A DNA stretch of 64,000 bases, taken from an uncultured virus (IMG/VR IMGVR_UViG_3300037067_013648) (Duplodnaviria > Heunggongvirae > Uroviricota > Caudoviricetes). The stretch is taken from IMG/VR virus record IMGVR_UViG_3300037067_013648; one strand, given 5' to 3'. Below the pieces are notes generated by a model, which was not told the origin of the DNA, made no database searches, and was given only the letters and a program-made list of their open reading frames with translations. This document shows positions 17,784 to 44,757 of this stretch, in pieces (position 1 is the first letter of the stretch; every line of letters starts with the position of its first letter). The position numbers were made by a program, and so were the translations under genes.

Positions 17784-17786
17784 CTT

Positions 17787-18074: not shown

Positions 18075-18075
18075 T

Positions 18076-27676: not shown

Positions 27677-30600
27677 ATGTCTGCACTATTACTTCAAATT
27701 AATTTGGATCTTCAAGCAGGATCATCTTTAAATATATTGAATACTATAGAATCTAGTGTTGATAAAATAGTTGGTAAATTACAACAGTTTAGTAATTTTT
27801 TTAAAGGTAATCCTATAAATGTAGTAACACCACAACAATTAGATATTGTTAATAATTTAGCAAATACTATTAAACTTGTTGATAATATAGGATTATCAAT
27901 TAATAATAATAATATAGAAGAAGTAGCACGTAGAAAACAATTATTAGATATGCATATAGCTCAGGCCAATATTTTAAAGAAAAGTGTCGAAACTGTCCAA
28001 GGTTTAAATGATGCTTTTAAGAAACAACAAGGATATAATGAACAATTTGAAGATTTTCATGATAAATCTAAAAAGTATTATGAAAAGAATAAAAAAGATT
28101 TAAATTTTATTTTGAAACATAAAGTTAGTATGATTAATTTAACTAAATCAGAAGTTAAAGAATTTAACAGTTTTGTAAAGTCTCTAAAGCTTGCTGCTGA
28201 ATTGGGTGGTGTACACGTTAAACAGCTTGGCGAAGCCGGTAAAAATGCTAAAGAATTATATCATGCAATGTCTAATGTTGAAGTAAATATTGTTAATCAA
28301 GTATCGTTATGGAATCAAATTAGCAATGCTGTAAGAAAAATAATTGGAATTATTCCTGGTATTGGAATATTAATAGCTGTTTTAGATAATCCATTATCTG
28401 TTATAAAGCAATCACTTGAAGAAATGAAAGATTTATGGGCTAAAAATAATAAAGTATCAAATAATTTTTTATTTGGGGCAGAAGGACAATCTAATAGGCT
28501 TGGCCAATCATTATTTGAAACTATGCAAAATATCAGTAGCGCTGGTGGCGCTATGAGAGAAGAATTTAAAGAATTCGGTGTAGATATTGGCGATAATATT
28601 ATTACAATGGATCAGACTAGAAAAGCTGTTGATGCTGTATTAGCTTCAAGTCATAAAGGTATTATACAAAATAATAAACAACTTGGGATATATGCATCGT
28701 TAACTGCTCAAACTGCTAGAGCCACTGGTTTAGCTGATTCTGCTGTTGCTGATTTAATTTTAAAGTATAGTATGTTATCTGATACAATTGGCGGTATAAA
28801 AGATCCAAATATAAGAATGAAACAATCTGCTGTCCTTACTAACACTCTTGTTAATGTAACTGCTAAATATAGCTTTAGTGTTGAAGAAACTGCTACTGTT
28901 GTATCATTACTTAATAAAAATATGATGTTTTTAAATAAAAATTTTAAAGTTGATTCTGAATTAGCTAAATTAGGCATTACATCAGCTAGTGCATTTGCTG
29001 GAACTTTATCTGCTTTAGGTGATGCAGCTAAGAAAGCTGGACATGACTCAAGAGTAGCAATGGAGGCATTTTCGTCTGGTATTGAAGATCCATTAGGAAA
29101 TATTTTATTATTACAAGATGCTGTTAATAGTACTGATCCAACAGAACAAATGCTAGCAATGGGCAAAAATGCTGCAGATTGGGCAGCTATAATTGAAGAT
29201 AATCCAATGTTACGTGGACAAGCTAGACAAATGTTTGGTAAGAGTTATGAAGAACTTACAGCAATGAGAGATGCATATACAGAGCTTAATAAAACTGCTG
29301 CTAAAAATGCTGATGGTTCAATTGATATGATTGCATTACAGAAAAAATTAGCCGATGAACAGACAGCTAATGAAGCTAAAACTGCAGCAAATTCTGATGC
29401 CAATAATAAATTAACTGAAGCATTAGATAAACTAAGAATAATATTTGGTAGATTAGCTAGTGCAGTGCAACCATTTATTGATGGTCTTGCATATTTAATA
29501 AGTATTCCTGGTGCCCCTTATATTATTGCCTTAACAGGTGCATTTGCTGGTTTGTATACTGTTATTAAAATGGTTAGTACTATCAAATCACTTGGATCAA
29601 TATTTGGTGATGTAGCTGCTAAAGCTAAATCATTAACTACTAGTATAAAAGGTGGTGGAGGGACTGGTGCATTAGGTTCTTTTGCTACTGGAGTTAAAGA
29701 TTTTATTAATACTTTAGGAGAAATTAAAATAGTAGGAGCTATTAAAGCTGCTGCTTCTATAGCTATAGTTGGTGTTGGATTGGCTGCTGGTGTTGCTGCA
29801 CTTGGATTAGCAGCCAAATTGTTACCACCTGATAAAGCTGCACAATTAGCTGTAACTGTTGGTGGTATAGTTGCTGCTTCATGGATATTATCAAAAATGT
29901 CATCAGTAGGACCAAAGGCTATAGCTGGTGCGGCATTAGTAGCAGCAGTTGGAGTATCTTTGGCAATTGGTACTTGGGCATTAGGTAAAGCATCTGAAGG
30001 AATTACTTTAGAACAAACTGGTATCTTAGGGATAATAACTGGAGGGTTATTAATTGTAACTGGTCTATGTGCATTAATGGCACCTTTGGTACCACTTGCG
30101 ATTGTTGGTGCAGCAGGATTAGCTGTAGTTGGAGGATTATTAGCTGTTGGTATTTGGGCGATAGGTGAAGCTGTAAGTTCATTTGGTGAAGATACTATTG
30201 TTGCATTATCTAATCTTTTTGATGTTATTGCAAGTATTCCAGTTAGTGCAGGTTTGGCTTTATCTGGTATGGCATTGGGTCTTACAGCATTTGCAGCAGC
30301 ATTAACTGGTGGAGCTATATTCTCATTCTTTAGTGGTGGAATGGTTAATAATGCTATGGAAATGGCTACTGCAATGCAATTATTGTTAGACCCAATAATC
30401 AAACTTGGTAATATAGGTGATCAAGTATCTAAATCGTTTGTTTCTATAGCAGAAGGATTAAAAGTATTCGTTGAAGCTATAAATGATAGTTCAGGATGGT
30501 TCTCCTCATTCGAAGGTAAAGCTGAAAAAGTTGCATCTGCTATGCGTAAAATAGCAGCACCAATGAAAGATATGGCTGGTGGAGTTACAACAAATGTTAA

Positions 30601-30832
30601 TTCTGAAGAAATCAAGAAAGGATTAGCCTTAACTATAGAATCATCAAATAAGTCAAACAAAGAAATAGTAGATGAATTAAAAGAAATAAAGAAATTATTA
30701 GTTGGTAATACTGAAAAAGTCATTGCTGATAAGATTGATAAATCAATTGAAGTTCTTAATAAAATATTTAATGAAATGAGAATAGGTAGTGGATTTGGAT
30801 CAACCTCAGCAAATACTGATTATGCTGGGTAA
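27677..30832 (+). CDS. Tape measure protein
   Basis: 1051 aa, helical, with a long Ala/Gly/Leu hydrophobic tract; directly upstream of baseplate and tube genes. Confidence 0.8.
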   Translation: MSALLLQINLDLQAGSSLNILNTIESSVDKIVGKLQQFSNFFKGNPINVVTPQQLDIVNNLANTIKLVDNIGLSINNNNIEEVARRKQLLDMHIAQANILKKSVETVQGLNDAFKKQQGYNEQFEDFHDKSKKYYEKNKKDLNFILKHKVSMINLTKSEVKEFNSFVKSLKLAAELGGVHVKQLGEAGKNAKELYHAMSNVEVNIVNQVSLWNQISNAVRKIIGIIPGIGILIAVLDNPLSVIKQSLEEMKDLWAKNNKVSNNFLFGAEGQSNRLGQSLFETMQNISSAGGAMREEFKEFGVDIGDNIITMDQTRKAVDAVLASSHKGIIQNNKQLGIYASLTAQTARATGLADSAVADLILKYSMLSDTIGGIKDPNIRMKQSAVLTNTLVNVTAKYSFSVEETATVVSLLNKNMMFLNKNFKVDSELAKLGITSASAFAGTLSALGDAAKKAGHDSRVAMEAFSSGIEDPLGNILLLQDAVNSTDPTEQMLAMGKNAADWAAIIEDNPMLRGQARQMFGKSYEELTAMRDAYTELNKTAAKNADGSIDMIALQKKLADEQTANEAKTAANSDANNKLTEALDKLRIIFGRLASAVQPFIDGLAYLISIPGAPYIIALTGAFAGLYTVIKMVSTIKSLGSIFGDVAAKAKSLTTSIKGGGGTGALGSFATGVKDFINTLGEIKIVGAIKAAASIAIVGVGLAAGVAALGLAAKLLPPDKAAQLAVTVGGIVAASWILSKMSSVGPKAIAGAALVAAVGVSLAIGTWALGKASEGITLEQTGILGIITGGLLIVTGLCALMAPLVPLAIVGAAGLAVVGGLLAVGIWAIGEAVSSFGEDTIVALSNLFDVIASIPVSAGLALSGMALGLTAFAAALTGGAIFSFFSGGMVNNAMEMATAMQLLLDPIIKLGNIGDQVSKSFVSIAEGLKVFVEAINDSSGWFSSFEGKAEKVASAMRKIAAPMKDMAGGVTTNVNSEEIKKGLALTIESSNKSNKEIVDELKEIKKLLVGNTEKVIADKIDKSIEVLNKIFNEMRIGSGFGSTSANTDYAG

Positions 30833-30841
30833 ATATAATAT

Positions 30842-31408
30842 ATGGCTTTTATACTTGCTGAAATAGATCAAGATGCCATATCAAAAGTCAATATAACAGG
30901 TGATCCATCAGGATTTAACCTTGATAGTAGCAATATTCAATTTCCTCCAATTATAACTAAAGATAGTAAAAGTGCATCTTGGCAAACTCATGAAGCACAA
31001 TCATATGAGCCAATAGCATTCTTTAAAAGTGGCAACCCAAGAGAAATAGGATTAGAATTTCAATGGGTAATAGGTGGAGAGTGGACACCAGATAAAGTGC
31101 ATACAACCATAAGTAAAGTAAAAGGATATTTTTATACTGCATATAAAGGAAGCGCATTAAAAGAATACCCAGCAGTAATAATAACTAATTTATATAATAT
31201 AATAACTCAAAAAACAACTTGGAGAATGGATAGTGTAAACATAACTTATAGTCCAGAATTAATAAAACTTGATGGCGCATGGTACCCATTACATGTAAAA
31301 ATGGCAATGAATTTATTATCAGCAACAAGACTGGCTGGAGAATCAGATAAAACACCAATGCAAAAAATAACAAAGCTAGAATCAAAACCAGAATTAGGAT
31401 GGTATTAA
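30842..31408 (+). CDS. Tail-tube initiator / baseplate protein
   Basis: DSKSASWQT...EPIAFFKSGNPREIGLEF...MDSVNITYS pattern of contractile-tail tube-like proteins; synteny. Confidence 0.65.
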   Translation: MAFILAEIDQDAISKVNITGDPSGFNLDSSNIQFPPIITKDSKSASWQTHEAQSYEPIAFFKSGNPREIGLEFQWVIGGEWTPDKVHTTISKVKGYFYTAYKGSALKEYPAVIITNLYNIITQKTTWRMDSVNITYSPELIKLDGAWYPLHVKMAMNLLSATRLAGESDKTPMQKITKLESKPELGWY

Positions 31409-31410
31409 TT

Positions 31411-31716
31411 ATGCCATTAAGTTATAGTAGATTTAAATATACACCACTAGTAAAAACTAGAAATGGTTCAGAAACATATGGGTTAATGTCAGGATTTGAT
31501 GCACTAAAAAACATGACAGGAGAACAGTATGAAAACTGGACAGTAACAAATCAATATGAAGGACGACCAGATTTAATAGCAAATTCATTTTATCACTTGT
31601 CATATTATGACTTCGTAATAATAATAGCAAATAGACCAAAAAATCCATTGAACTGGCCAAAAACAGGAGACATCATAAAAATACCTAATATAGATTTTGT
31701 AAGGACATTAATCTAA
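31411..31716 (+). CDS. Baseplate wedge protein, gp53/LysM-like
   Basis: YEGRPDLIANSFY...IIIAN...GDIIKIP. Confidence 0.8.
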   Translation: MPLSYSRFKYTPLVKTRNGSETYGLMSGFDALKNMTGEQYENWTVTNQYEGRPDLIANSFYHLSYYDFVIIIANRPKNPLNWPKTGDIIKIPNIDFVRTLI

Positions 31717-32213
31717 TGCCAGGATTTAAAATATCAGATGAAGATGGTAATGGACCAAATTCAAAAGAAGAAACATTTCGTGACCACAGATTCATATTAG
31801 ACACATTTCTTGGAAATCCAGGAAATCAACCACCATTTAACCTATTAAAAAACGTAGACTTACCAGAAAGACTAATAGAAGAATTACAAATAAAAACACC
31901 AGGAGCAACATATAATTTTTCAAAACAATTAGGATTTGGAAATGTAAAATTCATATTTTATATCCCAAATGGATTAATAGAAAAATTAGAAGAATTATTT
32001 GATAAAATAGGAAATAGTAAAACTGGCATACAAAATTTTAATAATTATATGAGCGAAATAGGATTAAGAATGGTCCATCCAGATGGAGATAAAGCATTCC
32101 TATTTAAAAACGCATACATAAGTAACATAACATATGGACAACTATCATACGGATCATCAGAAATAAAACAAGCAACAGTAACAGTAAGATTCTCATGGTA
32201 TGAGGTATCATAA
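31716..32213 (+). CDS. Tail tube-like protein (gp19/gp54 family)
   Basis: VDLPER...FLFKNAYISNITYGQLSYGSSEIKQATVTVRF. Confidence 0.75.
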   Translation: MPGFKISDEDGNGPNSKEETFRDHRFILDTFLGNPGNQPPFNLLKNVDLPERLIEELQIKTPGATYNFSKQLGFGNVKFIFYIPNGLIEKLEELFDKIGNSKTGIQNFNNYMSEIGLRMVHPDGDKAFLFKNAYISNITYGQLSYGSSEIKQATVTVRFSWYEVS

Positions 32214-32215
32214 CT

Positions 32216-33454
32216 ATGGAACAAGCAGGAGCAGATGTAGAACTAATAATAAACATAGAAGATGGAGAAGATTTAAGTAACTATGTCAATAGATTCCAAT
32301 GGAAATCATTAATAAACGGAGGATACTCAATATATGCAATGTTCAACGACCCACACCTAGCAAAATTCCAAGAAATAGCAAACGAAAAATACCTAAAAGA
32401 CGCAAGAAAAAAACCAACCAAAGTAAAATGGAAACTAAAATGGAGAATAAGTGGAGATGAAACAGAAGAAAGAATAGCATACATAACCGACTTAGACGCC
32501 AACACACCAGAAGGAGGACAAACCTCCGGATACTTCCAATTCATAGCAATAGACCCACCAACATGGTACCTCAACTGGGGAGACGCCAAAGGAAAAGTAT
32601 ACAAAGGAAAAGTATCAGAAGTAATCAAAAAAATAGTATCAGACTACGCACCAGGAATAACAGTACAAGTAAGCGAAACAACCGACAATAAAGAAAACAA
32701 ATGGTGGATGATGCGACAAGACCCAAAATCATTCATAATGTCACTAGTAGACTGGTCATCATCAATAACAAACCAAAAAACACAATGGGTAATAGCAAGC
32801 GTAGACGAAAAAATAATAATAAAAGAACAAGCAGAATTACCAAACGGATCATTCGGAGACTACACAGTAAACTCAAACGCACCAGGAGCACAAAACGTAA
32901 TATCATGGAAAATGTTAGAAAACAACTACCTAACAAACATACAAACCGTAATATCAACATCAGGAATAAGCGCAGTATCAGGACTATACTGCGATAGAAA
33001 CAACGACATAACCAAAGACAAAGTAAAAATAAACGACTCAAGAACAAACAACAAACTAAACGTAAACCTACAACAAGACCAAAGCTTCACAAAACCAACC
33101 GACGAAAGCCGTGGTTGGACACACATAATGGCAATACCAGAACACAGCGCAGGAGAAATAGGGATAAAATATCAAGAATATATCGATGGGCGAGCACGAG
33201 CAATGTTCCTAAATATGTTAGGAGGATTAAACAGAATAAAACTAAAAGTAATAGGAAATCACAAAATACATGACAGTAGTAACTTAGGAGGATATACAGT
33301 AAATCTGACATGGGTAGATGTAAATGGAGCACCATATAGTGCGAACGGCAAATGGCTTGTATACGGGTTTGAGCATACAATGTTTCCGGGGTTATGGACT
33401 ACAGACATATATTTATATAGGAACGATTATGATGCATCTGCTCAAAAGCGTTAA
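32216..33454 (+). CDS. Baseplate hub protein (gp27/GpD-like)
   Basis: YKGKVSEVIKKIV, KVIGN and GKWLVYGFEH; synteny. Confidence 0.65.
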   Translation: MEQAGADVELIINIEDGEDLSNYVNRFQWKSLINGGYSIYAMFNDPHLAKFQEIANEKYLKDARKKPTKVKWKLKWRISGDETEERIAYITDLDANTPEGGQTSGYFQFIAIDPPTWYLNWGDAKGKVYKGKVSEVIKKIVSDYAPGITVQVSETTDNKENKWWMMRQDPKSFIMSLVDWSSSITNQKTQWVIASVDEKIIIKEQAELPNGSFGDYTVNSNAPGAQNVISWKMLENNYLTNIQTVISTSGISAVSGLYCDRNNDITKDKVKINDSRTNNKLNVNLQQDQSFTKPTDESRGWTHIMAIPEHSAGEIGIKYQEYIDGRARAMFLNMLGGLNRIKLKVIGNHKIHDSSNLGGYTVNLTWVDVNGAPYSANGKWLVYGFEHTMFPGLWTTDIYLYRNDYDASAQKR

Positions 33455-33466
33455 GTATTTTAATAA

Positions 33467-34453
33467 TTGATGGCTAGTATAAGAACTTATGAAAAATGTG
33501 GTTTTTCATCAGAAAAAGAATTAGCTGATTATATAAAATTACAAAATGAATTAGGTAAAGATTTACGTCAATTGCAAAATGAATTACATATTGGGTATTC
33601 ATCAATACGTAGAACTATTAATAAATTTAAAATAAAAACAATTGTAGGACATGGATACTTAAATCATGGATTTAAAACTGAACAAGAATTTATTGATCAT
33701 TTAAATAAATTATATAAAACAAATACTATGCCAGAAATAGCTATAAAATTAGGTGTAAGTACAAATACAGTACAAAATCATTATTTTCCAAAATTTAAAA
33801 TAAAGAAAAGAAAATTTAATGAATCATTATTTTTAAAAACAAAACCAGCTAATCTTACAAAAATTGAATCAGAAATAATAAATGGAATGCTTCTTGGAGA
33901 TGGTAGTTTATATATTAATAAAAAATTTAAATTTAAAAATGCAGTTTTATTATATACATGTCACTACGTTGAAGTTTTAGATGATATAAGATATAATTTA
34001 TTGAAAAAACTTGGATGGCATTTTAAAATAGTTTCACGTTTTGATAAGAGAACTAATAAAATATATACTAATTATACTATATGTTCACGATCTTTCCCAG
34101 AATTAACTGAATTAAAAAAGAAATGGTATCCTAATGGTATAAAAATTATTCCAAAAAATATAATATTAACACCAGAAACATGTTACTGGTGGTATCTTGG
34201 TGACGGATCATCAGGAAATAGCAGCCTAATACTTTGTACAAATGGATTTACTGAAAAAGATGTAAAATTCATAGCTAATAAAATACCTGTCGAATGTGCT
34301 GTATATACAACTCAAGGTCCAATGATTAATATTATAAAAAGAAAAGAAAGAAGAAAATTTTTAGACTTTATCGGACCATGCAGACATAAATGTTATTCAA
34401 AAAGATGGATAATTAATGATAAATATATGAAACCAGATAAAAATTTTAATTAA
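33467..34453 (+). CDS. Free-standing LAGLIDADG homing endonuclease with N-terminal HTHs
   Basis: IINGMLLGDGSL and WWYLGDGS..LCTNGFT. Confidence 0.9.
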   Translation: MMASIRTYEKCGFSSEKELADYIKLQNELGKDLRQLQNELHIGYSSIRRTINKFKIKTIVGHGYLNHGFKTEQEFIDHLNKLYKTNTMPEIAIKLGVSTNTVQNHYFPKFKIKKRKFNESLFLKTKPANLTKIESEIINGMLLGDGSLYINKKFKFKNAVLLYTCHYVEVLDDIRYNLLKKLGWHFKIVSRFDKRTNKIYTNYTICSRSFPELTELKKKWYPNGIKIIPKNIILTPETCYWWYLGDGSSGNSSLILCTNGFTEKDVKFIANKIPVECAVYTTQGPMINIIKRKERRKFLDFIGPCRHKCYSKRWIINDKYMKPDKNFN

Positions 34454-34495
34454 TTCTTTGTGTACCAACTAAATTAAGAATTGGTACACAAAGAA
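34454..34495. terminator. 15-bp perfect inverted repeat (terminator or DNA hairpin)
   Basis: ttctttgtgtaccaa-N12-ttggtacacaaagaa. Confidence 0.7.
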
Positions 34496-34729
34496 ATTTA
34501 GTCATTATAATCCAATTATTTTTCTGAATTCATTTTCATTATCAATACTGTTGAATTTTTTAATAAAAGATTGACATTTTTCATAATTGTTTTTATTTAA
34601 TAATATTTCAACTGAATTTATATACTACTGCAATTATTTTTGAATGCAGAATGTACTACACTATGGGCTGCAGCCTGCATTACACCGTATGTTAATATAT
34701 TTATTAATATTATTAATAACTTATAAAAA

Positions 34730-36556
34730 TTGATAATGGTTCGTTACACCACTGAAGAATTCATTAAAAAAGCCAAATTAATACATGGAGATAAGTACGA
34801 CTACTCGTTAGTAAATTATACTAATTGTTATACTAAAGTTAAAATAATATGTAAAATTCATGGAGAATTTGAACAAATACCTAGTGATCATTTATCAGGG
34901 AAAGGATGCAATAAATGTTATGGAAGTGTTAAATCAACAACTGAAGAATTTACCAGAAAAGCTAAATTAGTACATGGTGATAAATATAATTATTCATTAG
35001 TAAACTATACAGGAAATAAAATAAAAGTTAAAATAATATGTAAAAAACATGGAGAATTTGAACAATCTCCAGCTAAACATTTGGCTGGACAAAATTGTAT
35101 AAAATGCATTAATGAAAAATCAAGTAAGAAATATTCTTCTACTATTGAAGAGTTTATACAAAAAGCTAAATTGGTACATGGTGATAAATATGATTATTCA
35201 TTAGTAAACTATGTAGGATCAGTAATTAAAGTTAAAATTATTTGTCCAATTCATGGAAAATTTGAACAAAGACCAGATAAACATTTGTATGGTCAAGGAT
35301 GCCAAGAATGCTATGGTAAGAAAAAATTTACATTAAATAAATTTATAGAAAAAGCTAAATTAATTCATGGTGATAAATATAATTATTCAAAAGTTGAATA
35401 TAAAAATATTTTTATAAAAATAAAAATTATATGTCCTATTCATGGCGAATTTGAACAAGCTCCAGTTAATCATTTAAAAGGTTATGGATGTGTTAAATGT
35501 TCACCATATGCAAAATTGACTAATTTTGTTGATAGAGCTAAACTAATACATGGTAATAAATATAATTATTCATTAGTAAATTATGTAAATAATAAAACAA
35601 AAGTTAGAATTATATGTCCAATTCATGGAGAATTTAAACAAAAACCTTACCATCATTTAAATAAATTTGGATGTCAAAAATGTTTTTATGATAATGATGT
35701 TTCTGTTGCTCATCATGAAATAATTGATTATTTAAAACAATTTAAAATTAATAATATTTTAATTAATGATCATGAACTTATAAAACCTAATGAATTAGAT
35801 ATTTATTTGCCTGATACTAATGTCGCAATAGAATATAATGGGGTTTATTACCATAGTTATAATAAATTAGAATCATTTAAAGAAAAATACAAGCATTATA
35901 ATAAAACATCAAATTGTTTTGATAAAGGAATTAAATTAATACAAATTTTTGAAAATGAATGGCTGGAAAAGCAAGAAATAGTAAAATCGATATTATTATA
36001 TAAAATTAATAATTATAATGATAAAATTTATGCTAAAAATTGTGAAATAAAATTATTGAATAATAAAGAATTTAATGATTTTTGTAGTCAAAATCATATT
36101 AAAGGAAAAATAAATTCAGTTTATAAATATGGTTTATTATATAATAATAAAATAGTTCAAATAATTGGGTTTAATAAGTGTAATAAATATGATTATGAAT
36201 GCGTTAGGTTGTGTTCTAGTTTAAGAACATTAGTAGTTGGTGGTGTTAGTAAATTATTAAAATATTTTATTAATAATATAAAGCCAAAATCTATTATATC
36301 ATATGTAGACAGACGTTATTTTGATGGGAATGTTTATAAAAAATTAGGTTTTGAATTAGTTGAAATAACTGATCCTGAATATTTTTATGTTAAAAATAAA
36401 AATTTGTTTTTGTGTCGACAATTTCAAAAGAATAAACTTAAAAATAAATTGAAAGAATTTAATAGTAATTTATCTGAAGCTCAGAATATGTTTAATAATA
36501 ATTATAGAAGAATTTGGGATGCTGGATATTTGAAGTTTGTTTTAAAAATTTATTAA
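34730..36556 (+). CDS. Hef-like homing endonuclease (paralog of 735..2441)
   Basis: Five HGDKYxYS Zn-ribbon repeats; ELDIYLPDTNVAIEYNGVYYHS; C-terminal ISYVDRRYFDGNVYKKLGF. Confidence 0.85.
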   Translation: MIMVRYTTEEFIKKAKLIHGDKYDYSLVNYTNCYTKVKIICKIHGEFEQIPSDHLSGKGCNKCYGSVKSTTEEFTRKAKLVHGDKYNYSLVNYTGNKIKVKIICKKHGEFEQSPAKHLAGQNCIKCINEKSSKKYSSTIEEFIQKAKLVHGDKYDYSLVNYVGSVIKVKIICPIHGKFEQRPDKHLYGQGCQECYGKKKFTLNKFIEKAKLIHGDKYNYSKVEYKNIFIKIKIICPIHGEFEQAPVNHLKGYGCVKCSPYAKLTNFVDRAKLIHGNKYNYSLVNYVNNKTKVRIICPIHGEFKQKPYHHLNKFGCQKCFYDNDVSVAHHEIIDYLKQFKINNILINDHELIKPNELDIYLPDTNVAIEYNGVYYHSYNKLESFKEKYKHYNKTSNCFDKGIKLIQIFENEWLEKQEIVKSILLYKINNYNDKIYAKNCEIKLLNNKEFNDFCSQNHIKGKINSVYKYGLLYNNKIVQIIGFNKCNKYDYECVRLCSSLRTLVVGGVSKLLKYFINNIKPKSIISYVDRRYFDGNVYKKLGFELVEITDPEYFYVKNKNLFLCRQFQKNKLKNKLKEFNSNLSEAQNMFNNNYRRIWDAGYLKFVLKIY

Positions 36557-36610
36557 AAGCAAATAATTTCAAGCAAAAATATTGTATAACACCTGATAAA
36601 GGAACCTCCC

Positions 36611-37039
36611 ATGGCCGATCAACCAGCTAATGCCTCAATCTCAGTACGTCGTACAGTTCGTACACGTGTTGATGTCCCGCGCAACGCTTCAATCAAGCAA
36701 ATGGCTCAGCGGCTTGGTACCGAAGTGGTAATAGCGCCAGGTGAAGAAATCGATGCATTCTATGCATTGGCTACTGATGTTGCGGCTGCGATAGCGTCGG
36801 GAACACCTGGTCCGAATCCGGCTTGGAGATATGGGATGCCTGTTGTGCTTGAGACTCGTGAACGGGCTAGTGTTGCCGACGTCTACGCTGGCGTGGCTAG
36901 TCTCTCGTTCCCTGTTCAGATTGTTGGTACTAAGCATGATCGTTTCATCCAGAAGGATGATTCGCATCTTACTGACGATATTCAGGGTGAGGTTCGGGCT
37001 ATTGCTCCTCTTCCTCGGGGTCTTTTCCGCGCTATTTAA
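36611..37039 (+). CDS. Highly expressed probable virion protein
   Basis: GC-rich codons like the capsid gene; AAGGAA RBS; own terminator. Confidence 0.65.
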   Translation: MADQPANASISVRRTVRTRVDVPRNASIKQMAQRLGTEVVIAPGEEIDAFYALATDVAAAIASGTPGPNPAWRYGMPVVLETRERASVADVYAGVASLSFPVQIVGTKHDRFIQKDDSHLTDDIQGEVRAIAPLPRGLFRAI

Positions 37040-37065
37040 GTTTGTTGTTTGTTAGTGGTTTGTTG

Positions 37066-37102
37066 GCAGTACCGCTGGGGATTCTCAGCGGTACTGCTGT
37101 TT
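37066..37102 (+). terminator. Intrinsic terminator
   Basis: Stem gcagtaccgctg / cagcggtactgc followed by tgttt. Confidence 0.8.
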
Positions 37103-37128
37103 GAGAAAATATAAATGGGGATTTACAC

Positions 37129-37653
37129 ATGACTGTGCTTTCTACTGGTGTTTTAAGTCAGAGTCCTATTACTAATCCTAATATGTTTATTCCTTATGTT
37201 GCTGTTTTGGAGGTTAAGTTTCCTTTTGGGTATGGTAATCGTTGGGAGCGTAATAATGAGATTGAGAAGATTGCTAATGCTGCTGAGCGGAGTTTGCAGG
37301 CTTATTTAGCTGCTAATGGTTATGTTGATGAGGCTTCTAGTCCTGTTAAGTTTACTGTTGCGTTTGGTAATTTTGTCGCTAAGTTGACTATTAATGGTAA
37401 TGTTAATCGTTCTAGGGATGTTATTCCTAAGAAGCCTACTGAGGATGTGACGGTTCTTAATGCTGGTCAGGGTGTTACTGGTTATGGTTGTGTTACTGCT
37501 TCTAATAGGGTTGAGGATCCTTTTATTGTTCGTTTTGCTACTGATTTGTTTAATTCTTTGGAGTCTATTATTGCTGATGCTGATGTTATTAGTATTGAGG
37601 TTGCTGGTATTAGGTTTGGGAAGAATGGTAGGAGTTTTAATGCATTAGTTTGA
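37129..37653 (+). CDS. Hypothetical (probably structural) protein
   Basis: 174 aa; AAATATA motif upstream. Confidence 0.65.
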   Translation: MTVLSTGVLSQSPITNPNMFIPYVAVLEVKFPFGYGNRWERNNEIEKIANAAERSLQAYLAANGYVDEASSPVKFTVAFGNFVAKLTINGNVNRSRDVIPKKPTEDVTVLNAGQGVTGYGCVTASNRVEDPFIVRFATDLFNSLESIIADADVISIEVAGIRFGKNGRSFNALV

Positions 37654-37671
37654 TTTTTGTATTTTATTTTT

Positions 37672-38628
37672 ATGGATAAGTTTTCATTTACGGAAGTCCA
37701 TCGCCACTTTGGCGGGTCGATTTCTCCTTATACTGTTAGCAAGGTTTCTGGTATTCCGTTAGAGTTGGTTAGGAAGCAGATGGTTTTTGGTGTTGGTGAT
37801 AGGTGTGATTATTCTTCGTTTTTTAGGAAGTTTCATGTTTTGGATAATATTGAGTGGGATTATGTTAGGATTTCGTTGACTATTCAGGATGTGGTTTGGG
37901 GGTTGAAGAGGGAGGGTATTAAATATGCTGAGATTAAGTTTTCTATTAATAAGTATTTGAAGTTTATTAAAACTTCTATTAATGAGTTTGTTTTGTGGTT
38001 TGTTAATGAGTTTGATATTTATTCTTCTTATGTTGGGGTTACTGTTGATTTGATTTTGTCTTTGAAGCATGATATGGATAGGAAGAGTCAGGTTGATATT
38101 GGTAATTTGGTTAAGAATGATTTGATTGCTGAGTGTATTGCTGGTATTGATATTGTTGGTGATGAGAGGAAGTTTGATGTTGATTTTTATAAGCCGATTT
38201 TTGATTTATGGCATTCTGCTGGTAGGGTTTGTATGGCTCATGTTGGCGAGATTGATAAGCCTCAGCATGTTATTGATGCTATTAATATTTTGAAGGTTGA
38301 TAGGGTTTGTCATGGTATTGCTGTAGCTGGTGATAAGGAGATTGCTAAGATTTCTAGGGATAGGTTAATTTCTTTTGATGTGTGTATTTCTAGTAATTTT
38401 TGTACTGGTGTTGCTAAGCGTGGTAAGCATCCTGTTAAGGAGATGTTGAGGAATGGGTTTATTATTAATATTGGGACTGATGATCCTACTACGTTTAATT
38501 CTAATATTTGTAATGAGTTTAGGTTGTTGAAGTCTGAGTCTGGTTTGAGTGATGGTGATATTGCTTTGATTAGGGATAATACTATTAATTTTTCTGCTCA
38601 GGAGATTATTAAGAGGAAGTTGAGATGA
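37672..38628 (+). CDS. add: Adenosine/AMP deaminase-family metallohydrolase
   Basis: EVHRHFGGS (HxH), GIDIVGDE, AHVGE, RVCHG and GTDDP. Confidence 0.9.
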   Translation: MDKFSFTEVHRHFGGSISPYTVSKVSGIPLELVRKQMVFGVGDRCDYSSFFRKFHVLDNIEWDYVRISLTIQDVVWGLKREGIKYAEIKFSINKYLKFIKTSINEFVLWFVNEFDIYSSYVGVTVDLILSLKHDMDRKSQVDIGNLVKNDLIAECIAGIDIVGDERKFDVDFYKPIFDLWHSAGRVCMAHVGEIDKPQHVIDAINILKVDRVCHGIAVAGDKEIAKISRDRLISFDVCISSNFCTGVAKRGKHPVKEMLRNGFIINIGTDDPTTFNSNICNEFRLLKSESGLSDGDIALIRDNTINFSAQEIIKRKLR

Positions 38629-38792
38629 TTGATACTAGTAATAATTTAGTTAATACGTCTAATGTTGTTTTGAATGATGTAATGTATTTTGATTTACGAA
38701 AGGATGATGGTTATTATGTATGTAATATTAATATTGAGAAGCTTAAAGAGATGAAGATTAGGAAACGTATACGTAAATTATTTAATAGTTAA
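38625..38792 (+). CDS. 55-aa hypothetical protein
   Basis: ATGA overlap with the deaminase stop; fills the gap before the next gene. Confidence 0.45.
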   Translation: MIDTSNNLVNTSNVVLNDVMYFDLRKDDGYYVCNINIEKLKEMKIRKRIRKLFNS

Positions 38793-38821
38793 TATATGCA
38801 AAAGGAAAATTTAAAGGGTAA

Positions 38822-39598
38822 ATGAAAATATCGTCGTTAAGTGTTATTAATGAAGGGTACGGAAGAGTTTACAATTCTAAATATTCTAATTATAATGTTG
38901 ATCCACAACCAAATGTATTAGCTTTAGGTAGGTGGGTTAATCACAAAAATACTAGACTTCTTTGCGGGATTAATCTAAGATATTTGTCTGATGATCAAAT
39001 TGTTGATCTTCAAAAGAATTTGCAATATATTTTGTCTGATCGTAATTTACGTCGTCGTGTTCGTCGTCTTCGTAAGGTACTTCCTCAAGTTTTCGATCGG
39101 GCATACAGGACTTATAATCAAGATCATATTACCATAATTGCTCCTGACACTCTTAAGTTTTATAGGGAACCTGTTCCTAAGACTGTTAAGGTTCCTGTTA
39201 CTAAGGCTGTTGAACCTAAGCCTTTTAATAAGATTAGTGGTTCTGAGGTTGGTGAAAAGGAAAAGGATGATTTTAAGAATAAGGGTCTTGAGGCTCCTGA
39301 GAAGTTTGATGATGTTGATGATATTGATCAGATTAAGAAGGATGATAGTAGTCTTAATTTGAATGCTGATGAGCCTTCTCCTGATGAGAAGGAGGTTCTT
39401 CATAAGTCTGCTAAGGGTGTTGAATTGAAGAATAAGGATGAGGTTAAGGATATTGATAAGAATAAGGATGATAAGAAAGTTAAAGATACTTCTGAGGTTA
39501 AGAAGGATAGTAATTTTGGTAAGTCTTCTGTTGATGTTGATGATCTTGATTATGAGGAGGGTGAAGAGGAGCAGGATTCTGGTATTCAAAATAAATAG
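38822..39598 (+). CDS. DNA end-protector-like (T4 gp2-like) protein with an acidic tail
   Basis: DPQPNVL..LLCGINLRYL..RAYRTY; MKISSLSVINE leader. Confidence 0.55.
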   Translation: MKISSLSVINEGYGRVYNSKYSNYNVDPQPNVLALGRWVNHKNTRLLCGINLRYLSDDQIVDLQKNLQYILSDRNLRRRVRRLRKVLPQVFDRAYRTYNQDHITIIAPDTLKFYREPVPKTVKVPVTKAVEPKPFNKISGSEVGEKEKDDFKNKGLEAPEKFDDVDDIDQIKKDDSSLNLNADEPSPDEKEVLHKSAKGVELKNKDEVKDIDKNKDDKKVKDTSEVKKDSNFGKSSVDVDDLDYEEGEEEQDSGIQNK

Positions 39599-39610
39599 TA
39601 TTTTAGTTTT

Positions 39611-40306
39611 GTGATTATTAATATTAAATATCAGTCTGGTGATGACACGCTTGATACTTGTAATATTGATAGTATTAGGAGATTTTTTGATAATCATAAG
39701 GATTATAATTTTTATGAACTTGTTTTGAAATATGGTATTAAGCCTTCTACTTTAAAAGGTATTAGAGCTAAGGCTGGTATTAAATCTGATACTAAGCAAT
39801 CTAATTTTTTAAGGTCACATAAACCTAAGACTAGTGAGAGGGTATTACCTAGTGTTACTGATCGTGCTATTTGGGATAATAAAGAGTGGTTAACTGAAAC
39901 TAATAAAAAATATGGTATTGTAGCTATTGCTAAGATTACTGGTAAGTATGTTTGGGATATTCAGAGAAGATTTAAGAAATATAATATTAGGGCAATACCT
40001 TTAGCTGAACGATTAAAAAAGAACAAATATGATACTGATGAATGGATAAATGATTCTTATTTTGTTAAGAATCTTCAAATTGAAACTATGGCTAAAATTG
40101 CTGGTGTCAGTATATATACTATATATGACTGGCTTGTTGCTAGAAATATTTATCCTAGGGATTTGCATACTAGTAATGCATATAGAAATTGGTGTATTAA
40201 ATCTGCAAAGAAATTAGAAGAATATAATAAAAAGTATGGAACAAAGTTACAGAGTATTAGAGAAATTCCTGACTCGGGATCAGAACATTTTGAAGATAAG
40301 GCGTAG
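39611..40306 (+). CDS. Multi-HTH DNA-binding protein
   Basis: Repeated helix-turn-helix segments (IAKITG, MAKIAGVS). Confidence 0.6.
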   Translation: MIINIKYQSGDDTLDTCNIDSIRRFFDNHKDYNFYELVLKYGIKPSTLKGIRAKAGIKSDTKQSNFLRSHKPKTSERVLPSVTDRAIWDNKEWLTETNKKYGIVAIAKITGKYVWDIQRRFKKYNIRAIPLAERLKKNKYDTDEWINDSYFVKNLQIETMAKIAGVSIYTIYDWLVARNIYPRDLHTSNAYRNWCIKSAKKLEEYNKKYGTKLQSIREIPDSGSEHFEDKA

Positions 40307-41372
40307 CTATAATGGTTTTGTAATTGTTAGAGATGATAAGACAAGAGAGTTTATTAATATTGATAGGATTTTATATGGTACTAGGGTTAAGAAGAGTAAA
40401 AGTCGTGTTATTTGGTTGGCTCCTGATGTTAAATGGTGGGATCAACTTTATGATGGTAAGATTTTAGCTAAATATTATGAATATCCTGTTAGTGAATTAG
40501 AATTTAATAATGACGATTATTTTGCTTTATATAAATGGTCTTTTAAAGAGTTTAATAAGTTGAAGTTTTTTGATAAATATAATTTTATTCATGAATTATA
40601 TAATTTTGTAAAAAAACATGCTTATAAGGTTTTTAAATATCCTGATGATGTTTTGAGGTTTGATTTTCAATTGGCGGTTGAGGATAATATTAAATTGTTA
40701 GCACATGATGGTTATATATTTCCTAGATATAAGAATCATGGTAATTTATTATTTAAGAATTTTTTTCCTTATCAGGCTTATAATTTTAGTGGTATGGCTT
40801 TAAATAATAGAAATAATTTTAATTTTTTATTACTTAAAGCTATTTATAGGATTATTGATAATAACATTCAAAAGGATTTCAATTATGAATTAATTATGGA
40901 TAGTCTTGCTAAATTAAAATATTCACATGGTAAATTGCATGTTTTTAGACCTACTTGTTTATACAGAGCTATTATTAATGATCTTGATTTAAATGGTAAA
41001 TCTTTTTTTGATTTTGATCCTAGATGTGGTGAAAAGTTTTTAGCATCTGTTATTCAAGGATGTCAATACTATTTTAGACCTACATATCCATTTGATTTAT
41101 ATTATAAAAAGTTTGCTGATTTTTTAAATTATGAAGATATTAGTGAATATAATGAATCTACTAGGTATGATTTTTCTATAGTTGATTTTGATTTTAAGTT
41201 TAGTATGTCTAAATTTGAATATTATATGAATAATCATTTTAAAAATATTGACACTAATATAATTTATGTTAATCATAAGTTTGTTAATATTGTTGAAAAG
41301 AAATACCCACCACATAGGAAAATACCTATAAAGATTTATAGTAATGCTTGTTATTTCTTTGTTTATAATTAA
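40236..41372 (+). CDS. Degenerate methyltransferase-like protein
   Basis: FRPTCLY..FDFDPRCGEKFLA parallels FKPWVA..VDPCMGWGGRLLG of 9941..11275; no SPPY. Confidence 0.5.
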   Translation: MEQSYRVLEKFLTRDQNILKIRRSYNGFVIVRDDKTREFINIDRILYGTRVKKSKSRVIWLAPDVKWWDQLYDGKILAKYYEYPVSELEFNNDDYFALYKWSFKEFNKLKFFDKYNFIHELYNFVKKHAYKVFKYPDDVLRFDFQLAVEDNIKLLAHDGYIFPRYKNHGNLLFKNFFPYQAYNFSGMALNNRNNFNFLLLKAIYRIIDNNIQKDFNYELIMDSLAKLKYSHGKLHVFRPTCLYRAIINDLDLNGKSFFDFDPRCGEKFLASVIQGCQYYFRPTYPFDLYYKKFADFLNYEDISEYNESTRYDFSIVDFDFKFSMSKFEYYMNNHFKNIDTNIIYVNHKFVNIVEKKYPPHRKIPIKIYSNACYFFVYN

Positions 41373-41385
41373 TCAAATTTATTGT

Positions 41386-41622
41386 ATGAGCTTCAGTGAA
41401 ATTACTATTTATAGGACTTTACCAGTGGTTGGTGGGTTTATTAAAATTATTGATGATAATAATAATCTTCCTAAGCTTGTTCTTTCTGAAGTTCCATATT
41501 CTGAATTAAAGTTTGGTGTTACTTCTAAATTGGATTTTATTGAGTTTCCTGGAGTTGTAGCTAATGATGATAATGTTGATTATCAAGGTGTTGTTCGTGA
41601 TTTAGCTATTGCTAAGCTTTGA
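41386..41622 (+). CDS. Small hypothetical protein
   Basis: AAATTTA 11 nt before the ATG at 41386. Confidence 0.55.
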   Translation: MSFSEITIYRTLPVVGGFIKIIDDNNNLPKLVLSEVPYSELKFGVTSKLDFIEFPGVVANDDNVDYQGVVRDLAIAKL

Positions 41623-41662
41623 ATTTTTATTATTTGTAAATAATTATAATAAAACTTAAAGT

Positions 41663-41899
41663 ATGAGTTTTTTAGATGATTTGTTTTCTAAACGTGGTCA
41701 ACCATCTATTGGTGGGTTATCGTTTAATTTTATACCTATGTTGATTCCTGGTAGTTCTCAAGTTCCTATTAGTTTTTATGAAATTGATCCGTTAACATCA
41801 AGAACTGAACATTATTATAATGCTAGAAATAATGCTTTATATCGTAGGAAGTTTCTTTCTGAGTATTATGCTATTTGGGAACAGATTTCTTTTACTTAA
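41663..41899 (+). CDS. Small hypothetical protein
   Basis: 78-aa ORF. Confidence 0.55.
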   Translation: MSFLDDLFSKRGQPSIGGLSFNFIPMLIPGSSQVPISFYEIDPLTSRTEHYYNARNNALYRRKFLSEYYAIWEQISFT

Positions 41900-41926
41900 C
41901 TCAAATATACTAAGAGGAAGCATTAA

Positions 41927-44749: not shown

Positions 44750-44757
44750 TTAGAATT

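What the first reader, a model, noticed from the sequence alone, without database searches (positions are those of the whole stretch)
30800..39600. Extreme mirror-image strand skew across same-strand genes: candidate replication origin interrupted by homing endonucleases
Seen: + strand genes become progressively A/C-rich toward about 33.1 kb (33001-33060: A37 C13 G5 T5; codons ATA/GTA/GAC/AAA). After about 36.8 kb they are G/T-rich (37981-38040: T33 G15 A10 C2; codons ATT/GTT/GAT/AAG), decaying with distance. Both sides are transcribed the same way, so transcription cannot explain the flip. The two endonuclease genes in the middle lack the extreme bias and so look like recent insertions. Established: leading strands are keto (G+T) enriched. 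Inference: a bidirectional origin with unusually long-lived single-stranded DNA near initiation.
Basis: partly seen in the sequence, partly recalled or inferred. Interest (0 to 1): 0.7.

Follow-up and report, generated by a model that had tools for sequence, protein, structure and literature searches.

The report
Origin-like strand-skew switch in a phage
In this uncultured T4-like phage the silent codon positions are almost all A/C on one side of a point and almost all G/T on the other, a mutational footprint that most likely marks a site where DNA copying starts in both directions and that was later split by mobile endonuclease genes.

Summary
Third codon positions of + strand genes rise smoothly from 43% to 93% A+C between 30.0 and 33.0 kb, then are 1-10% A+C at 37.2-38.7 kb. 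Fourfold sites reach 82-89% A versus 80-89% T. The bias is mutational and follows position, not genes. It crosses gene boundaries, changes inside genes, affects a non-coding spacer and a silent first-position Leu change, and slightly shifts amino acids. Three close relatives with the same gene order lack it. The same phage carries it in four studies. The flip is one of two large drops, at about 8.6 and 36.8 kb, in a sawtooth across the whole window. Two distant relatives show the same sawtooth; in one it runs unbroken across genes on both strands. The endonuclease genes are younger inserts in a variable slot. The polarity fits outward DNA synthesis from the switch, so an origin is the best reading, at about 0.5. 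No replication data could be obtained. Raw reads were not available.

The parts
30000..33100 (+). A/C-rich ('amino') arm. Third-position A+C climbs .43 -> .52 -> .59 -> .68 -> .84 -> .93 across the end of the tape-measure gene and four tail/baseplate genes (30842-31408, 31399-31716, 31716-32213, 32216-33454).
   Evidence: Gene identities from PHROG tail-tube and baseplate hits and 279 homologues of the 412-aa protein.
33100..33454 (+). Graded loss of the bias inside the 3' end of gene 32216-33454: 18, 16, 14, 15, 11, 8 of 20 codons per block, then 4 of the last 13. It is also a divergence hot spot between strains.
   Evidence: In one search, 28 of the listed differences to the X5 strain lie in 33048-33695, against 48 differences in the whole 6.1-kb piece.
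33467..34453 (+). LAGLIDADG homing endonuclease gene, unskewed (fourfold A .54, T .43).
   Evidence: PF03161 E = 9e-22 and phrog_11023. 71% identical to a copy at the same site in L001. Absent from L002.
34730..36556 (+). Second endonuclease gene, annotated as HNH/homing endonuclease (phrog_559), with five tandem repeats of about 63 aa at 34745-35683. Unskewed. Not found in L001 or L002.
   Evidence: phrog_559 E = 4e-147; repeats; no tblastn hit in 81 loci; paralogue at 735-2441, 51% identical; contig depth up to 158 in X2, so the family is multi-copy in the community.
36579..36590 (+). 12-mer ATATTGTATAAC, 21 nt upstream of gene 36611. Its only other exact copy in the window is at 6380-6391, upstream of the gene before the capsid gene. 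A possible promoter core.
   Evidence: 2 exact copies; the 26 hits allowing up to 2 mismatches are no more than chance. Role inferred.
36611..37039 (+). Conserved 142-aa gene of unknown function, 52% G+C. Third positions turn G/T-rich within it (10, 9, 8, 4, 8, 2, 3 A/C of 20 per block). The minimum of the cumulative skew lies at 36766.
   Evidence: 80% identical to L001:12335-12760 and 74% to L002:1513-1938.
37040..37128 (+). Non-coding spacer. 37040-37066 is G/T only, with a single A. A 16-bp perfect hairpin follows at 37065-37100, then TATAAATG at 37110.
   Evidence: fold z = -4.4.
37129..38628 (+). G/T-rich ('keto') core: a 174-aa gene and an adenosine-deaminase-family gene. Third-position A+C is .01-.10.
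   Evidence: PF00962 E = 6e-39.
38629..38821 (+). Small unskewed islet (A+C .37) at a place where L001 carries a different 316-aa gene.
38822..46637 (+). Keto plateau. Third-position A+C is .06-.33, returning to the background of .35-.45 from about 47 kb.
5014..18339 (.). Second switch of the same polarity. A+C is .60-.71 at 5.1-7.2 kb. Then come the capsid gene 7213-8706 (GC3 .62) with its terminator, an unskewed endonuclease cassette at 9016-11275, A+C of .01-.06 at 11.7-12.3 kb, and a patchy keto arm to 18.3 kb. The cumulative-skew minimum is at 8619.

Best explanation
The mirror-image bias is the footprint of a strand-asymmetric mutation pressure whose polarity flips in the slot between the baseplate gene 32216-33454 and the 142-aa gene 36611-37039. 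To the right of the flip the + strand has lost A and C (A->T, A->G, C->T). To the left the - strand has. That is what is expected if DNA synthesis starts here and runs outward both ways, leaving the + strand exposed or lagging on the right and the - strand on the left. In short, it is a fixed replication initiation site, possibly primed from a transcript as at T4 oriF and oriG.

It is one of at least two such sites in the window, the other at about 8.6 kb. Between them the bias changes roughly linearly, like the skew 'N-domains' between fixed origins in human DNA. The 3.6 kb in the middle, two homing endonuclease genes plus short flanking tracts, is younger DNA that has not yet acquired the bias.

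Shown: the bias, its mutational and positional nature, its polarity, the sawtooth, its absence in close relatives, its presence in two distant ones, and the youth of the insert. Inferred: that replication causes it, that single-stranded exposure is the chemistry, and that a promoter or R-loop does the priming.
For: 1. The bias sits at silent sites. Compared codon by codon with the unskewed relative L001, 81 of 104 fourfold T sites are A in the left arm and 68 of 135 twofold T sites are C. In the right arm 49 and 15 of 75 fourfold A sites are T and G, and 56 of 91 twofold A sites are G.
2. It is not codon selection. It rises smoothly over five genes and changes inside two genes. The spacer 37040-37066 is G/T only. 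Leu TTA->CTA, a silent first-position change, makes CTA 15 of 38 Leu codons against 3 of 262 in the background. Replacement sites shift the same way: left arm against right arm, A<->T p = .003 and A<->G p = .006. The 412-aa protein has the lowest share of F/V/G/W/C among 33 homologues, and the deaminase is +.125 towards those residues relative to L001.
3. It follows the DNA strand. In L059, + strand third positions are .03-.19 A+C without a break across - strand genes (Rad50-like AAA_23, Mre11-like Metallophos) and + strand genes (helicase, Toprim primase).
4. In L012 the same A/C->G/T flip occurs within about 180 nt inside a ribonucleotide reductase gene with no insert at the flip.
5. Sawtooth: A+C rises with slope .026 per kb from 11.7 to 33.0 kb (r2 .75, Spearman .85) and .013 per kb from 37.2 to 64 kb (r2 .70). 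Detrended cumulative-skew minima lie at 8619 and 36766.
6. The polarity is the origin type. Break resection or a terminus would give the opposite order (inference from strand geometry).
7. T4 origins are a promoter plus an unwinding element that form an R-loop priming leading-strand synthesis, and three T4 origins coincide with shifts in strand composition (PMC3016281, passages). The linear skew between abrupt jumps is the pattern ascribed to gradients of fork polarity (PMC3320577, passages).
Against: - No replication data. Every run that holds the phage is kept as contigs, so no coverage peak, read ends or nascent strands could be read.
- No iterons or other origin elements stand out. The repeats in 33.0-37.3 kb are the endonuclease's own protein repeats and low-complexity matches, and Rfam gave nothing.
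- Close relatives with the same genes and the same promoter-like region upstream of the 142-aa gene show no skew step at all (L001 step -0.00; L083 flat at .37-.50). A conserved origin alone is therefore not enough, and something genome-wide changed in this lineage.
- The magnitude, near two-letter silent sites, is far beyond what I recall for replication skews in bacteria. This is recalled, not tested here.
- The decay is not a clean line. There are dips at 24-25.8 and 27.6-30.3 kb and gene-sized patches at 11-18 kb.
- Within the window itself the genes on the - strand do not settle strand against coding orientation. That test rests on L059, a 37%-identity relative.
- Both large drops coincide with endonuclease cassettes, which an origin model does not predict.
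Confidence: 0.5

Rival explanations
1. Recurrent breaks or nicks at the site, made by a homing endonuclease acting on its own genome or by another site-specific nuclease, prime recombination-dependent, bubble-migration DNA synthesis outward. The nascent strands stay single-stranded and mutate. The geometry is the same as for an origin, but the initiator is a DNA end rather than an origin.
For: Both large drops in the window sit at endonuclease cassettes (9016-11275 and 33467-36556). In L012 a probable intein lies about 0.5 kb from the flip. In T4, double-strand breaks trigger replication by the recombination-dependent pathway (PMC3016281, passages). The predicted polarity of synthesis primed from a broken end matches what is seen (inference).
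Against: An endonuclease-carrying genome is normally immune to its own enzyme, so a lineage is cut only at each gain. That is far too rarely to saturate silent sites over 3-10 kb (inference). L001 carries the LAGLIDADG gene at the same site with no skew. Endonuclease-like genes at 735-2441 and 51831-53219 have a weak mirrored flank or none. I recognised no endonuclease among the ORFs listed around L059's drop at 11.2-11.4 kb (these ORFs were read by eye, not all scanned against a family library). Simple resection of a break predicts the opposite polarity.
Confidence: 0.15
2. Transcription-associated mutagenesis. Divergent transcription or R-loops from the central region expose the non-template strand on each side, without any role for replication.
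For: The G/T-rich arm starts just after a promoter-like motif, a short gene, a strong hairpin and a TATAAATG. Background + strand genes have a mild excess of T over A on the coding strand.
Against: In L059 the + strand is G/T-rich across - strand genes, where transcription would enrich the other strand. The capsid gene, expected to be the most transcribed, has no G/T excess (A+C .45-.62). The left arm would need strong antisense transcription through four structural genes, and only a 9-of-12 promoter-like match lies there. The L012 flip lies inside a gene.
Confidence: 0.1
3. Mosaic ancestry. The skewed blocks were imported from, or the unskewed ones replaced by, phages with a different genome-wide skew, or a block was inverted.
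For: Phage mosaicism is evident. There are gene-sized patches at 11-18 kb, an unskewed islet at 38629-38821 and a variable slot.
Against: Gene order and orientation match L001 over 21 kb, at 38-80% protein identity. The left arm is a smooth ramp, not a block. No candidate donor appeared: the highest fourfold T or A among 680 genes of related loci is .72. An inversion would turn the genes to the other strand.
Confidence: 0.07
4. Selection on codons or on the mRNA. A/C-ending codons would be fully Watson-Crick decoded and G/T-ending ones wobble decoded, or the RNAs would be selected to be free of U or of A.
For: The A/C against G/T split coincides with the Watson-Crick against wobble classes of third positions (established decoding rules). 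The gene before the capsid gene is also A/C-rich.
Against: Boundaries do not follow genes. Non-coding DNA and replacement sites are affected. Ile ATA at 90% and Leu CTA are not favoured codons in known bacteria (recalled). Orthologues in L001 show no such preference (T 135, C 9 at twofold sites of the left-arm genes). L059 shows the pattern follows the strand and not the coding sense.
Confidence: 0.03

Closest known systems
Replication-associated strand compositional asymmetry, with a polarity switch at origins (bacterial chromosomes; leading strand rich in G and T)
   Same: G+T excess on one side and A+C excess on the other, with the sign changing at a point. It is strongest at silent sites and spills over into amino-acid usage.
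   Different: The magnitude: third positions are 1-10% against 93% A+C. The scale: arms of 3-10 kb, not half a chromosome. The A<->T component outweighs G<->C. The trait is present in some lineages and absent in relatives with 80% protein identity. My figures for bacteria are recalled, not computed here.
Skew N-domains of the human genome (abrupt jumps at fixed initiation zones, linear change between them; PMC3320577, passages read)
   Same: A sawtooth: a sharp switch of origin polarity, then a gradual, roughly linear return to the opposite sign before the next switch (r2 .70-.75 here).
   Different: Kilobases instead of megabases. The amplitude is near saturation instead of a few percent. The host is a phage with recombination-dependent replication. 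The profile is steeper next to the switch than a straight line.
Phage T4 R-loop origins oriF (uvsY) and oriG (34) (PMC3016281, passages read)
   Same: A T4-like phage (gp23 capsid, gp21 protease). Several origins per genome are known for T4. T4 origins are a promoter plus an unwinding element, can lie among structural genes, and some coincide with shifts in strand composition. Leading-strand synthesis starts first in the direction of transcription.
   Different: No sequence similarity is expected or was found. No MotA-type promoter was identified. No R-loop or replication was shown. The composition shifts in T4 also follow a change in transcription direction, which is absent here.
Gradient of strand bias in vertebrate mitochondrial DNA (strand-displacement replication)
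   Same: The bias at fourfold sites grades with position, is ascribed to time spent single-stranded, and depletes the amino bases A and C on the exposed strand.
   Different: The mitochondrial gradient keeps one sign and is made of transitions. Here the sign reverses and A<->T transversions dominate at fourfold sites.
Strand-coordinated mutation clusters at resected breaks or during break-induced replication (kataegis)
   Same: Strand-coordinated changes that switch strand at a point and decay with distance. Single-stranded DNA is the substrate.
   Different: Resection predicts the opposite order of strands. Clusters are sparse single events, not saturated evolutionary equilibria. The details of that literature are recalled, not read here.

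Membership tests
Replication origin inferred from a strand-skew polarity switch | The sign of the skew changes from A/C-rich to G/T-rich in the 5'->3' direction of the reference strand | tested here: met
   Third-position A+C goes from .93 (32.4-33.0 kb) to .02 (37.2-37.5 kb). Cumulative-skew minima lie at 36766 and 8619.
Replication origin inferred from a strand-skew polarity switch | The skew is present at fourfold-degenerate and non-coding sites, so it is mutational and not selective | tested here: met
   Fourfold A .82-.89 against T .80-.89. G/T-only spacer at 37040-37066. Silent first-position Leu change.
Replication origin inferred from a strand-skew polarity switch | The skew follows the DNA strand regardless of gene orientation | tested here: inconclusive
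   Met in the relative L059, where the skew is continuous over - and + strand genes verified by Pfam. Within the window the few - strand genes do not discriminate.
Replication origin inferred from a strand-skew polarity switch | Replication initiates at the switch (marker frequency, nascent strands, 2D gels) | not testable with these tools
   All nine listed runs are kept as contigs. Contig depth cannot show coverage gradients or read ends.
Replication origin inferred from a strand-skew polarity switch | Origin sequence elements (iterons, initiator boxes, unwinding element) | tested here: inconclusive
   No iteron family was found apart from the endonuclease's protein repeats. The whole genome is 70% A+T, so an unwinding element cannot be singled out.
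T4-type R-loop origin (oriF/oriG) | A promoter directly upstream of an unwinding element, with the transcript forming a persistent R-loop | tested here: inconclusive
   A promoter-like 12-mer at 36579 is shared with 6380. A hairpin and a G/T spacer lie downstream. The R-loop cannot be tested. The generic sigma-70 scan gave no more matches than shuffles.
Homing endonuclease genes as recent inserts | Endonuclease domain, and presence/absence polymorphism at the same site among relatives | tested here: met
   PF03161 E = 9e-22 and phrog_559 E = 4e-147. L002 has neither gene and L001 only the LAGLIDADG gene. Silent-site identity 44 of 70 against 175 of 393 in the flanks, p = .006.
Break-resection mutation cluster | The strand that ends 3' at the break is mutated, which predicts G/T-rich on the left and A/C-rich on the right | tested here: not met
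   The observed order is the reverse. The prediction comes from strand geometry (inference).
Translational codon bias of an expression class | The bias respects gene boundaries, is confined to silent third positions and follows the coding strand | tested here: not met
   Ramp over five genes and switches inside genes. Replacement-site and non-coding effects. Strand-following in L059.

The most novel reading that the evidence does not exclude
Some uncultured T4-like and jumbo phages replicate from several fixed initiation sites. Their mutation asymmetry between the two template strands would be about 20- to 50-fold, as inferred from the near-saturated third positions under a simple two-state model (inference, not a tool result). 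With that asymmetry, silent sites record fork direction at kilobase resolution. This would be a natural, sequence-only map of origins and termination zones, with mobile DNA visible as unskewed 'young' islands. The trait switches on and off between lineages that share 80% protein identity, which points to a single replication or repair function whose gain or loss causes it.
Probability: 0.4. Interest if true: 0.85.

Novelty: new variant of a known kind. Interest (0 to 1): 0.75.

Why it matters
Replication origins of uncultured phages are essentially unknown, and even T4's are hard to define. If this sawtooth records fork direction, origins, termination zones and the relative age of mobile inserts could be read from sequence alone in these lineages. 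Comparing skewed genomes (this phage, L012, L059) with unskewed ones (L001, L083) could identify the replication or repair factor that normally keeps the two strands mutating alike.

The size of the effect also matters in practice. It distorts codon usage, protein composition and phylogenies, and it creates long spurious antisense reading frames in such genomes.

My six literature searches found no description of kilobase-scale, near-saturated skew switches in phages. The library holds open-access papers only, so this is not proof of absence.

Tried and rejected
- Whole genome of the window: none is held. Earlier findings were not open.
- Megablast of 30800-39600 against GenBank phages: no match.
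- Close-relative scan of viral contigs with the single protein: nothing. The alignment-based scans worked.
- tRNA scan: 0 genes. Rfam: 0 hits. So no intron or RNA explains the G+C-rich gene.
- Generic promoter and terminator scan: no more matches than in shuffles. TATAAATR: 46 matches against 44 expected.
- Coverage and ends: only Logan contigs were available, so depth, read starts and uncovered stretches say nothing.
- Fetching the rest of L001's contig: not held.
- The huge-phage record LR756511.1, the best GenBank capsid match at 37%: 41 kb shows only the usual weak coding-strand skew.
- G002 (176 kb): weak and irregular, with one peak of .82. It cannot serve as a whole-genome example.
- - strand genes 5014-6331 as a strand test: rejected, because their coding strand simply has the usual excess of T over A.
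- Bisulfite-like or base-calling artefact: rejected, because A as well as C is depleted, reading frames are intact and independent assemblies agree.
- Terminal-repeat or packaging-end reading of the 3.6-kb middle: set aside. There are at least two switches, and in T4-like genomes the packaging genes lie upstream of the head genes (recalled).
- The adenosine deaminase gene as the cause: rejected, because L001 has the orthologue (68% identity) and no skew.
- Protein branch length of the 412-aa protein.12, the same as its relatives, so there is no accelerated protein evolution.

Full report
WHAT THE WINDOW IS. The window is 30% G+C and belongs to a T4-like myovirus. It encodes a gp23-type major capsid protein (7213-8706, PF07068 E = 4e-76), a gp21-type prohead protease (81-722), tail-tube-like and baseplate-like proteins (31399-32213) and a 1051-aa tape-measure-like protein. 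It has no tRNAs, no Rfam hits and no nucleotide match in GenBank phages. No whole genome is held. The protein table puts its own contig at 125,712 bp. The best GenBank capsid match is a 595-kb uncultured phage at 37% identity. A sigma-70-like gene (24674-25357) and a near-consensus sigma-70 promoter (TTGACA at 8982, TATAAT at 9004) suggest a bacterial host.

THE OBSERVATION.
- Fourfold sites are 65-89% A in the four + strand genes 30842-33454. They are 80-89% T in 37129-38628 and 73-86% T out to 46.6 kb. The two endonuclease genes are balanced.
- In 300-nt bins, third-position A+C climbs .43.52.56.59.63.68.72.84.93.90 between 30.0 and 33.0 kb, across five genes. It is about .5 over the endonuclease genes.12 at 36.9 kb and .01-.10 at 37.2-38.7 kb. 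It then holds near .2 until 46.5 kb and returns to the background of .35-.45.
- The two arms are base-for-base complements. The left arm is A .66-.69, C .21-.27, G .04-.09, T .01-.03. The right arm is T .62-.73, G .24-.36, C 0-.05, A .01-.05.
- Codon use is almost binary: Ile ATA 44 of 49 against ATT 49 of 49, and Lys AAA 46 of 46 against AAG 30 of 32.

IT IS REAL DNA. Runs from four studies (groundwater, landfill and an unlabelled metagenome) hold the stretch. Contigs from X2, X3 and X4 cover skewed parts with 0-2 differences. A slightly diverged strain in X5 carries the same arms.

MUTATION, NOT CODON CHOICE. The relative L001 has the same gene order over 21 kb, 38-80% protein identity, and no skew (fourfold A .29-.51, T .40-.56). 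It allows a codon-by-codon comparison.
- Left arm: T->A at 81 of 104 fourfold sites and T->C at 68 of 135 twofold sites.
- Right arm: A->T at 49 and A->G at 15 of 75 fourfold sites, and A->G at 56 of 91 twofold sites.
So T is removed from the + strand on the left and A on the right.
- The silent first-position change TTA->CTA appears only in the left arm (CTA is 15 of 38 Leu codons there, against 3 of 262 in the background).
- The non-coding spacer 37040-37066 is G/T with a single A.
- Replacement positions shift the same way. The left arm differs from the right arm for A<->T (p = .003) and for A<->G (p = .006). Against the control region the shifts are modest (p = .002 to .46).
- The 412-aa protein has the lowest F/V/G/W/C share of 33 homologues. 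The deaminase is shifted by +.125 towards those residues.
- The protein's branch is not long (.12, like its relatives), so purifying selection holds the proteins.

POSITION, NOT GENES. The ramp ignores gene boundaries. The bias fades over the last 350 nt of gene 32216-33454 and appears over the 430 nt of gene 36611-37039.

A LINEAGE TRAIT.
- Three close relatives, at 79-81% identity in the 412-aa protein, lack the skew: L001 (the same contig as L084), L002 and L083.
- Among 680 genes with at least 40 fourfold sites in related loci of 5 kb or more, the maxima are T .72 and A .725.
- Of 20 loci with full flanks that could be scored, the mean left-minus-right step at the homologous place is .002.
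- Scanning 300-nt bins for A+C <= .12 or >= .85 found extreme bins in 4 of 67 metagenome or genome loci: L012 with 14, L059 with 16, L068 with 1 and L077 with 1. It found them in 2 of 68 viral loci: L111, which is the L012 region again, and L099 with 1.

WHAT THE DISTANT RELATIVES ADD.
- In L012 the A/C->G/T flip (16-18 of 20 codons down to 0-4 of 20) takes about 180 nt inside a ribonucleotide reductase gene, with nothing inserted at the flip.
- A probable intein 0.5 kb further on is unskewed, and the G/T bias resumes after it. The intein call rests on an Intein_splicing match below Pfam's cut-off.
- A second A/C peak (.89) follows 11 kb later. In the 43.7-kb record, peaks stand at 13.8, 24.6 and 35.4 kb.
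- In L059 the + strand is .03-.19 A+C without interruption over - strand genes (AAA_23 Rad50-like, Metallophos Mre11-like) and the adjoining + strand genes (helicase, Toprim primase). It rises to .64, then drops to .09 at a convergent gene boundary, again in - strand genes.
- The proteins encoded on L059's - strand are visibly rich in T, P, K, Q, N and H.
- So the bias follows the DNA strand, not the coding or transcribed strand. This is the test the window itself cannot make.

THE FLIP IS PART OF A SAWTOOTH.
- Across the window, A+C at third positions rises roughly linearly from 11.7 to 33.0 kb (slope .026 per kb, r2 .75, Spearman .85, 35 bins). It rises again from 37.2 to 64 kb (slope .013 per kb, r2 .70, 43 bins).
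- The detrended cumulative skew has minima at 8619 and 36766, plus a weak one at 473. Its maxima are at 4952, 20715 and 51851/58427.
- The second drop looks like the first: an A/C-leaning stretch (.60-.71), the capsid gene with its terminator, an unskewed endonuclease cassette (9016-11275), a graded edge, then .01-.06 at 11.7-12.3 kb.
- There are departures from the line. Dips occur at 24-25.8 and 27.6-30.3 kb, and gene-sized patches at 11-18 kb. Genes on the - strand sit about .1 above their + strand neighbours, a small coding-strand component.

THE MIDDLE IS YOUNG.
- The slot between the baseplate gene and the 142-aa gene is variable. L002 has a 124-aa ORF there, L001 the LAGLIDADG gene, and the window both endonuclease genes.
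- LAGLIDADG silent sites match L001 at 44 of 70, against 175 of 393 in the flanks (p = .006).
- Against the X5 strain, differences pile up at both edges. 28 listed differences fall in 33048-33695, and 35 in the 940 nt of 36827-37766, against 0 in the 2,393 nt of 38803-41195. The second endonuclease gene differs in structure between the strains.
- Repeated homing with co-conversion tracts of variable length would give exactly such graded, unskewed edges (inference). The small islet 38629-38821 also lies at a place where L001 differs.

MECHANISM.
- The amino bases A and C are the ones lost from single-stranded DNA, by deamination, by depurination followed by insertion of A, and by alkylation at ring nitrogens. 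This is established chemistry, recalled here.
- The + strand has lost them on the right and the - strand on the left. A strand displaced or left as lagging template by synthesis running outward from the switch gives that order. A replication terminus, or 5'->3' resection at a break, gives the reverse.
- In a two-state model the equilibrium A+C share is linear in the fraction of rightward forks. The profile can then be read as fork polarity: about 1 just right of the switch, about .8 to 46 kb, about .55-.65 beyond, and about 0 just left of it (inference).
- The short left arm and long right arm fit leftward forks meeting the rightward transcription of nearly all genes head-on (inference).
- The steep part next to the switch may instead reflect a delayed start of lagging-strand synthesis. 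This would match T4, where an R-loop primes the leading strand first (PMC3016281, passages).
- A promoter-like 12-mer found only at 6380 and 36579, each upstream of the unit where a drop occurs, together with the hairpin at 37065-37100, is compatible with that. It proves nothing.
- The sawtooth is the shape described for human skew N-domains and ascribed to gradients of fork polarity (PMC3320577, passages). For huge phages, only genome-wide GC skew of the bacterial kind has been reported (PMC7162821, passages).

WHAT REMAINS OPEN.
- Whether replication, rather than another strand-specific process starting at fixed sites, is the cause.
- Why close relatives with the same genes lack the trait.
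- Why both drops coincide with endonuclease cassettes. Endonuclease-like DNA covers roughly 14% of the window, so two coincidences have a crude chance of about .02. That is my estimate, from n = 2.
- Whether the roughly 11-kb spacing in L012's record means anything.
The break-primed rival shares the geometry but needs the genome to be cut every generation. L001 argues against a simple link to the endonucleases. I could not read coverage or read ends, because every run is stored as contigs.

VERDICT. The origin reading is the best available, at about 0.5, but is unproven. It is a new and extreme variant of a known kind of signal.

Noticed in passing
window 7213-8706: The major capsid gene is 52% G+C with GC3 .62 (C3 up to .50) in a genome whose usual GC3 is about .1. 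This may be strong codon selection in the most expressed gene, or foreign origin. It masks the strand skew at the first switch.
   Followed up: partly
window 6380-6391 and 36579-36590: The exact 12-mer ATATTGTATAAC occurs only twice, each time in the intergenic region upstream of the unit where a skew drop lies. L002 has a similar AAAAATATTATAGAC before its 142-aa gene. It may be a phage-specific promoter.
   Followed up: partly
window 33043-33056 and 37040-37053: A perfect 14-nt inverted repeat (an A/C-only run and its G/T-only complement) brackets the unskewed middle, 3,983 nt after the end of the first arm. It may be chance, given the two-letter composition.
   Followed up: no
window 8982-9009 and 8740-8775: A near-consensus sigma-70 promoter (TTGACA, 16 nt, TATAAT) drives the endonuclease cassette 9016-11275, directly after the capsid gene's strong terminator hairpin.
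   Followed up: no
window 735-2441, 34730-36556, 51831-53219: Three members of one endonuclease-like family (phrog_559). The first two are 51% identical, with 4-5 tandem repeats of about 63 aa of the DUF723/zinc-ribbon kind. The third carries a Mom-like C-terminal domain. Contig depth over 34.8-35.5 kb reaches 158 in X2, so the family is abundant in those communities.
   Followed up: partly
L059 482-3890 and 11478-14539 (- strand genes): The mutation pressure is strong enough to reshape proteins. The - strand products are rich in T, P, K, Q, N, H and I. Long stretches of the + strand, such as 11260-11560, are almost pure G/T, including non-coding DNA.
   Followed up: partly
G001 (record of L111/L012), 13.8, 24.6 and 35.4 kb: A/C peaks recur about 10.8 kb apart in the 43.7-kb record of a phage whose larger contig is 355 kb. 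If each marks an initiation site, the genome would hold some thirty.
   Followed up: no
L012 6815-7800: A probable intein in the ribonucleotide reductase gene (weak Intein_splicing match, with a Cys at the junction) is unskewed inside a strongly G/T-rich host gene. This second case supports reading mobile elements as 'young' islands.
   Followed up: partly
window 29518-30402, 32733-33047, 37759-38070 and 39047-39697 (- strand), and others: The two-letter composition removes stop codons, so long spurious ORFs of up to 294 aa open on the opposite strand and in other frames. Gene callers could be misled in such genomes.
   Followed up: no
protein P0041; locus L081: One homologue of the 412-aa protein is filed under a Nitrososphaerales archaeon MAG, and one locus under a Nitrospirales bacterium MAG. 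These are probably binned phage contigs, and the host remains unknown.
   Followed up: no
window 41927-44608, 44758-49375, 59398-60480: An 893-aa protein with a dockerin-type repeat, followed by sugar-modifying genes (sialyltransferase-like, hexapeptide transferase, epimerase, DegT aminotransferase). This may be a glycan or DNA-modification module.
   Followed up: no
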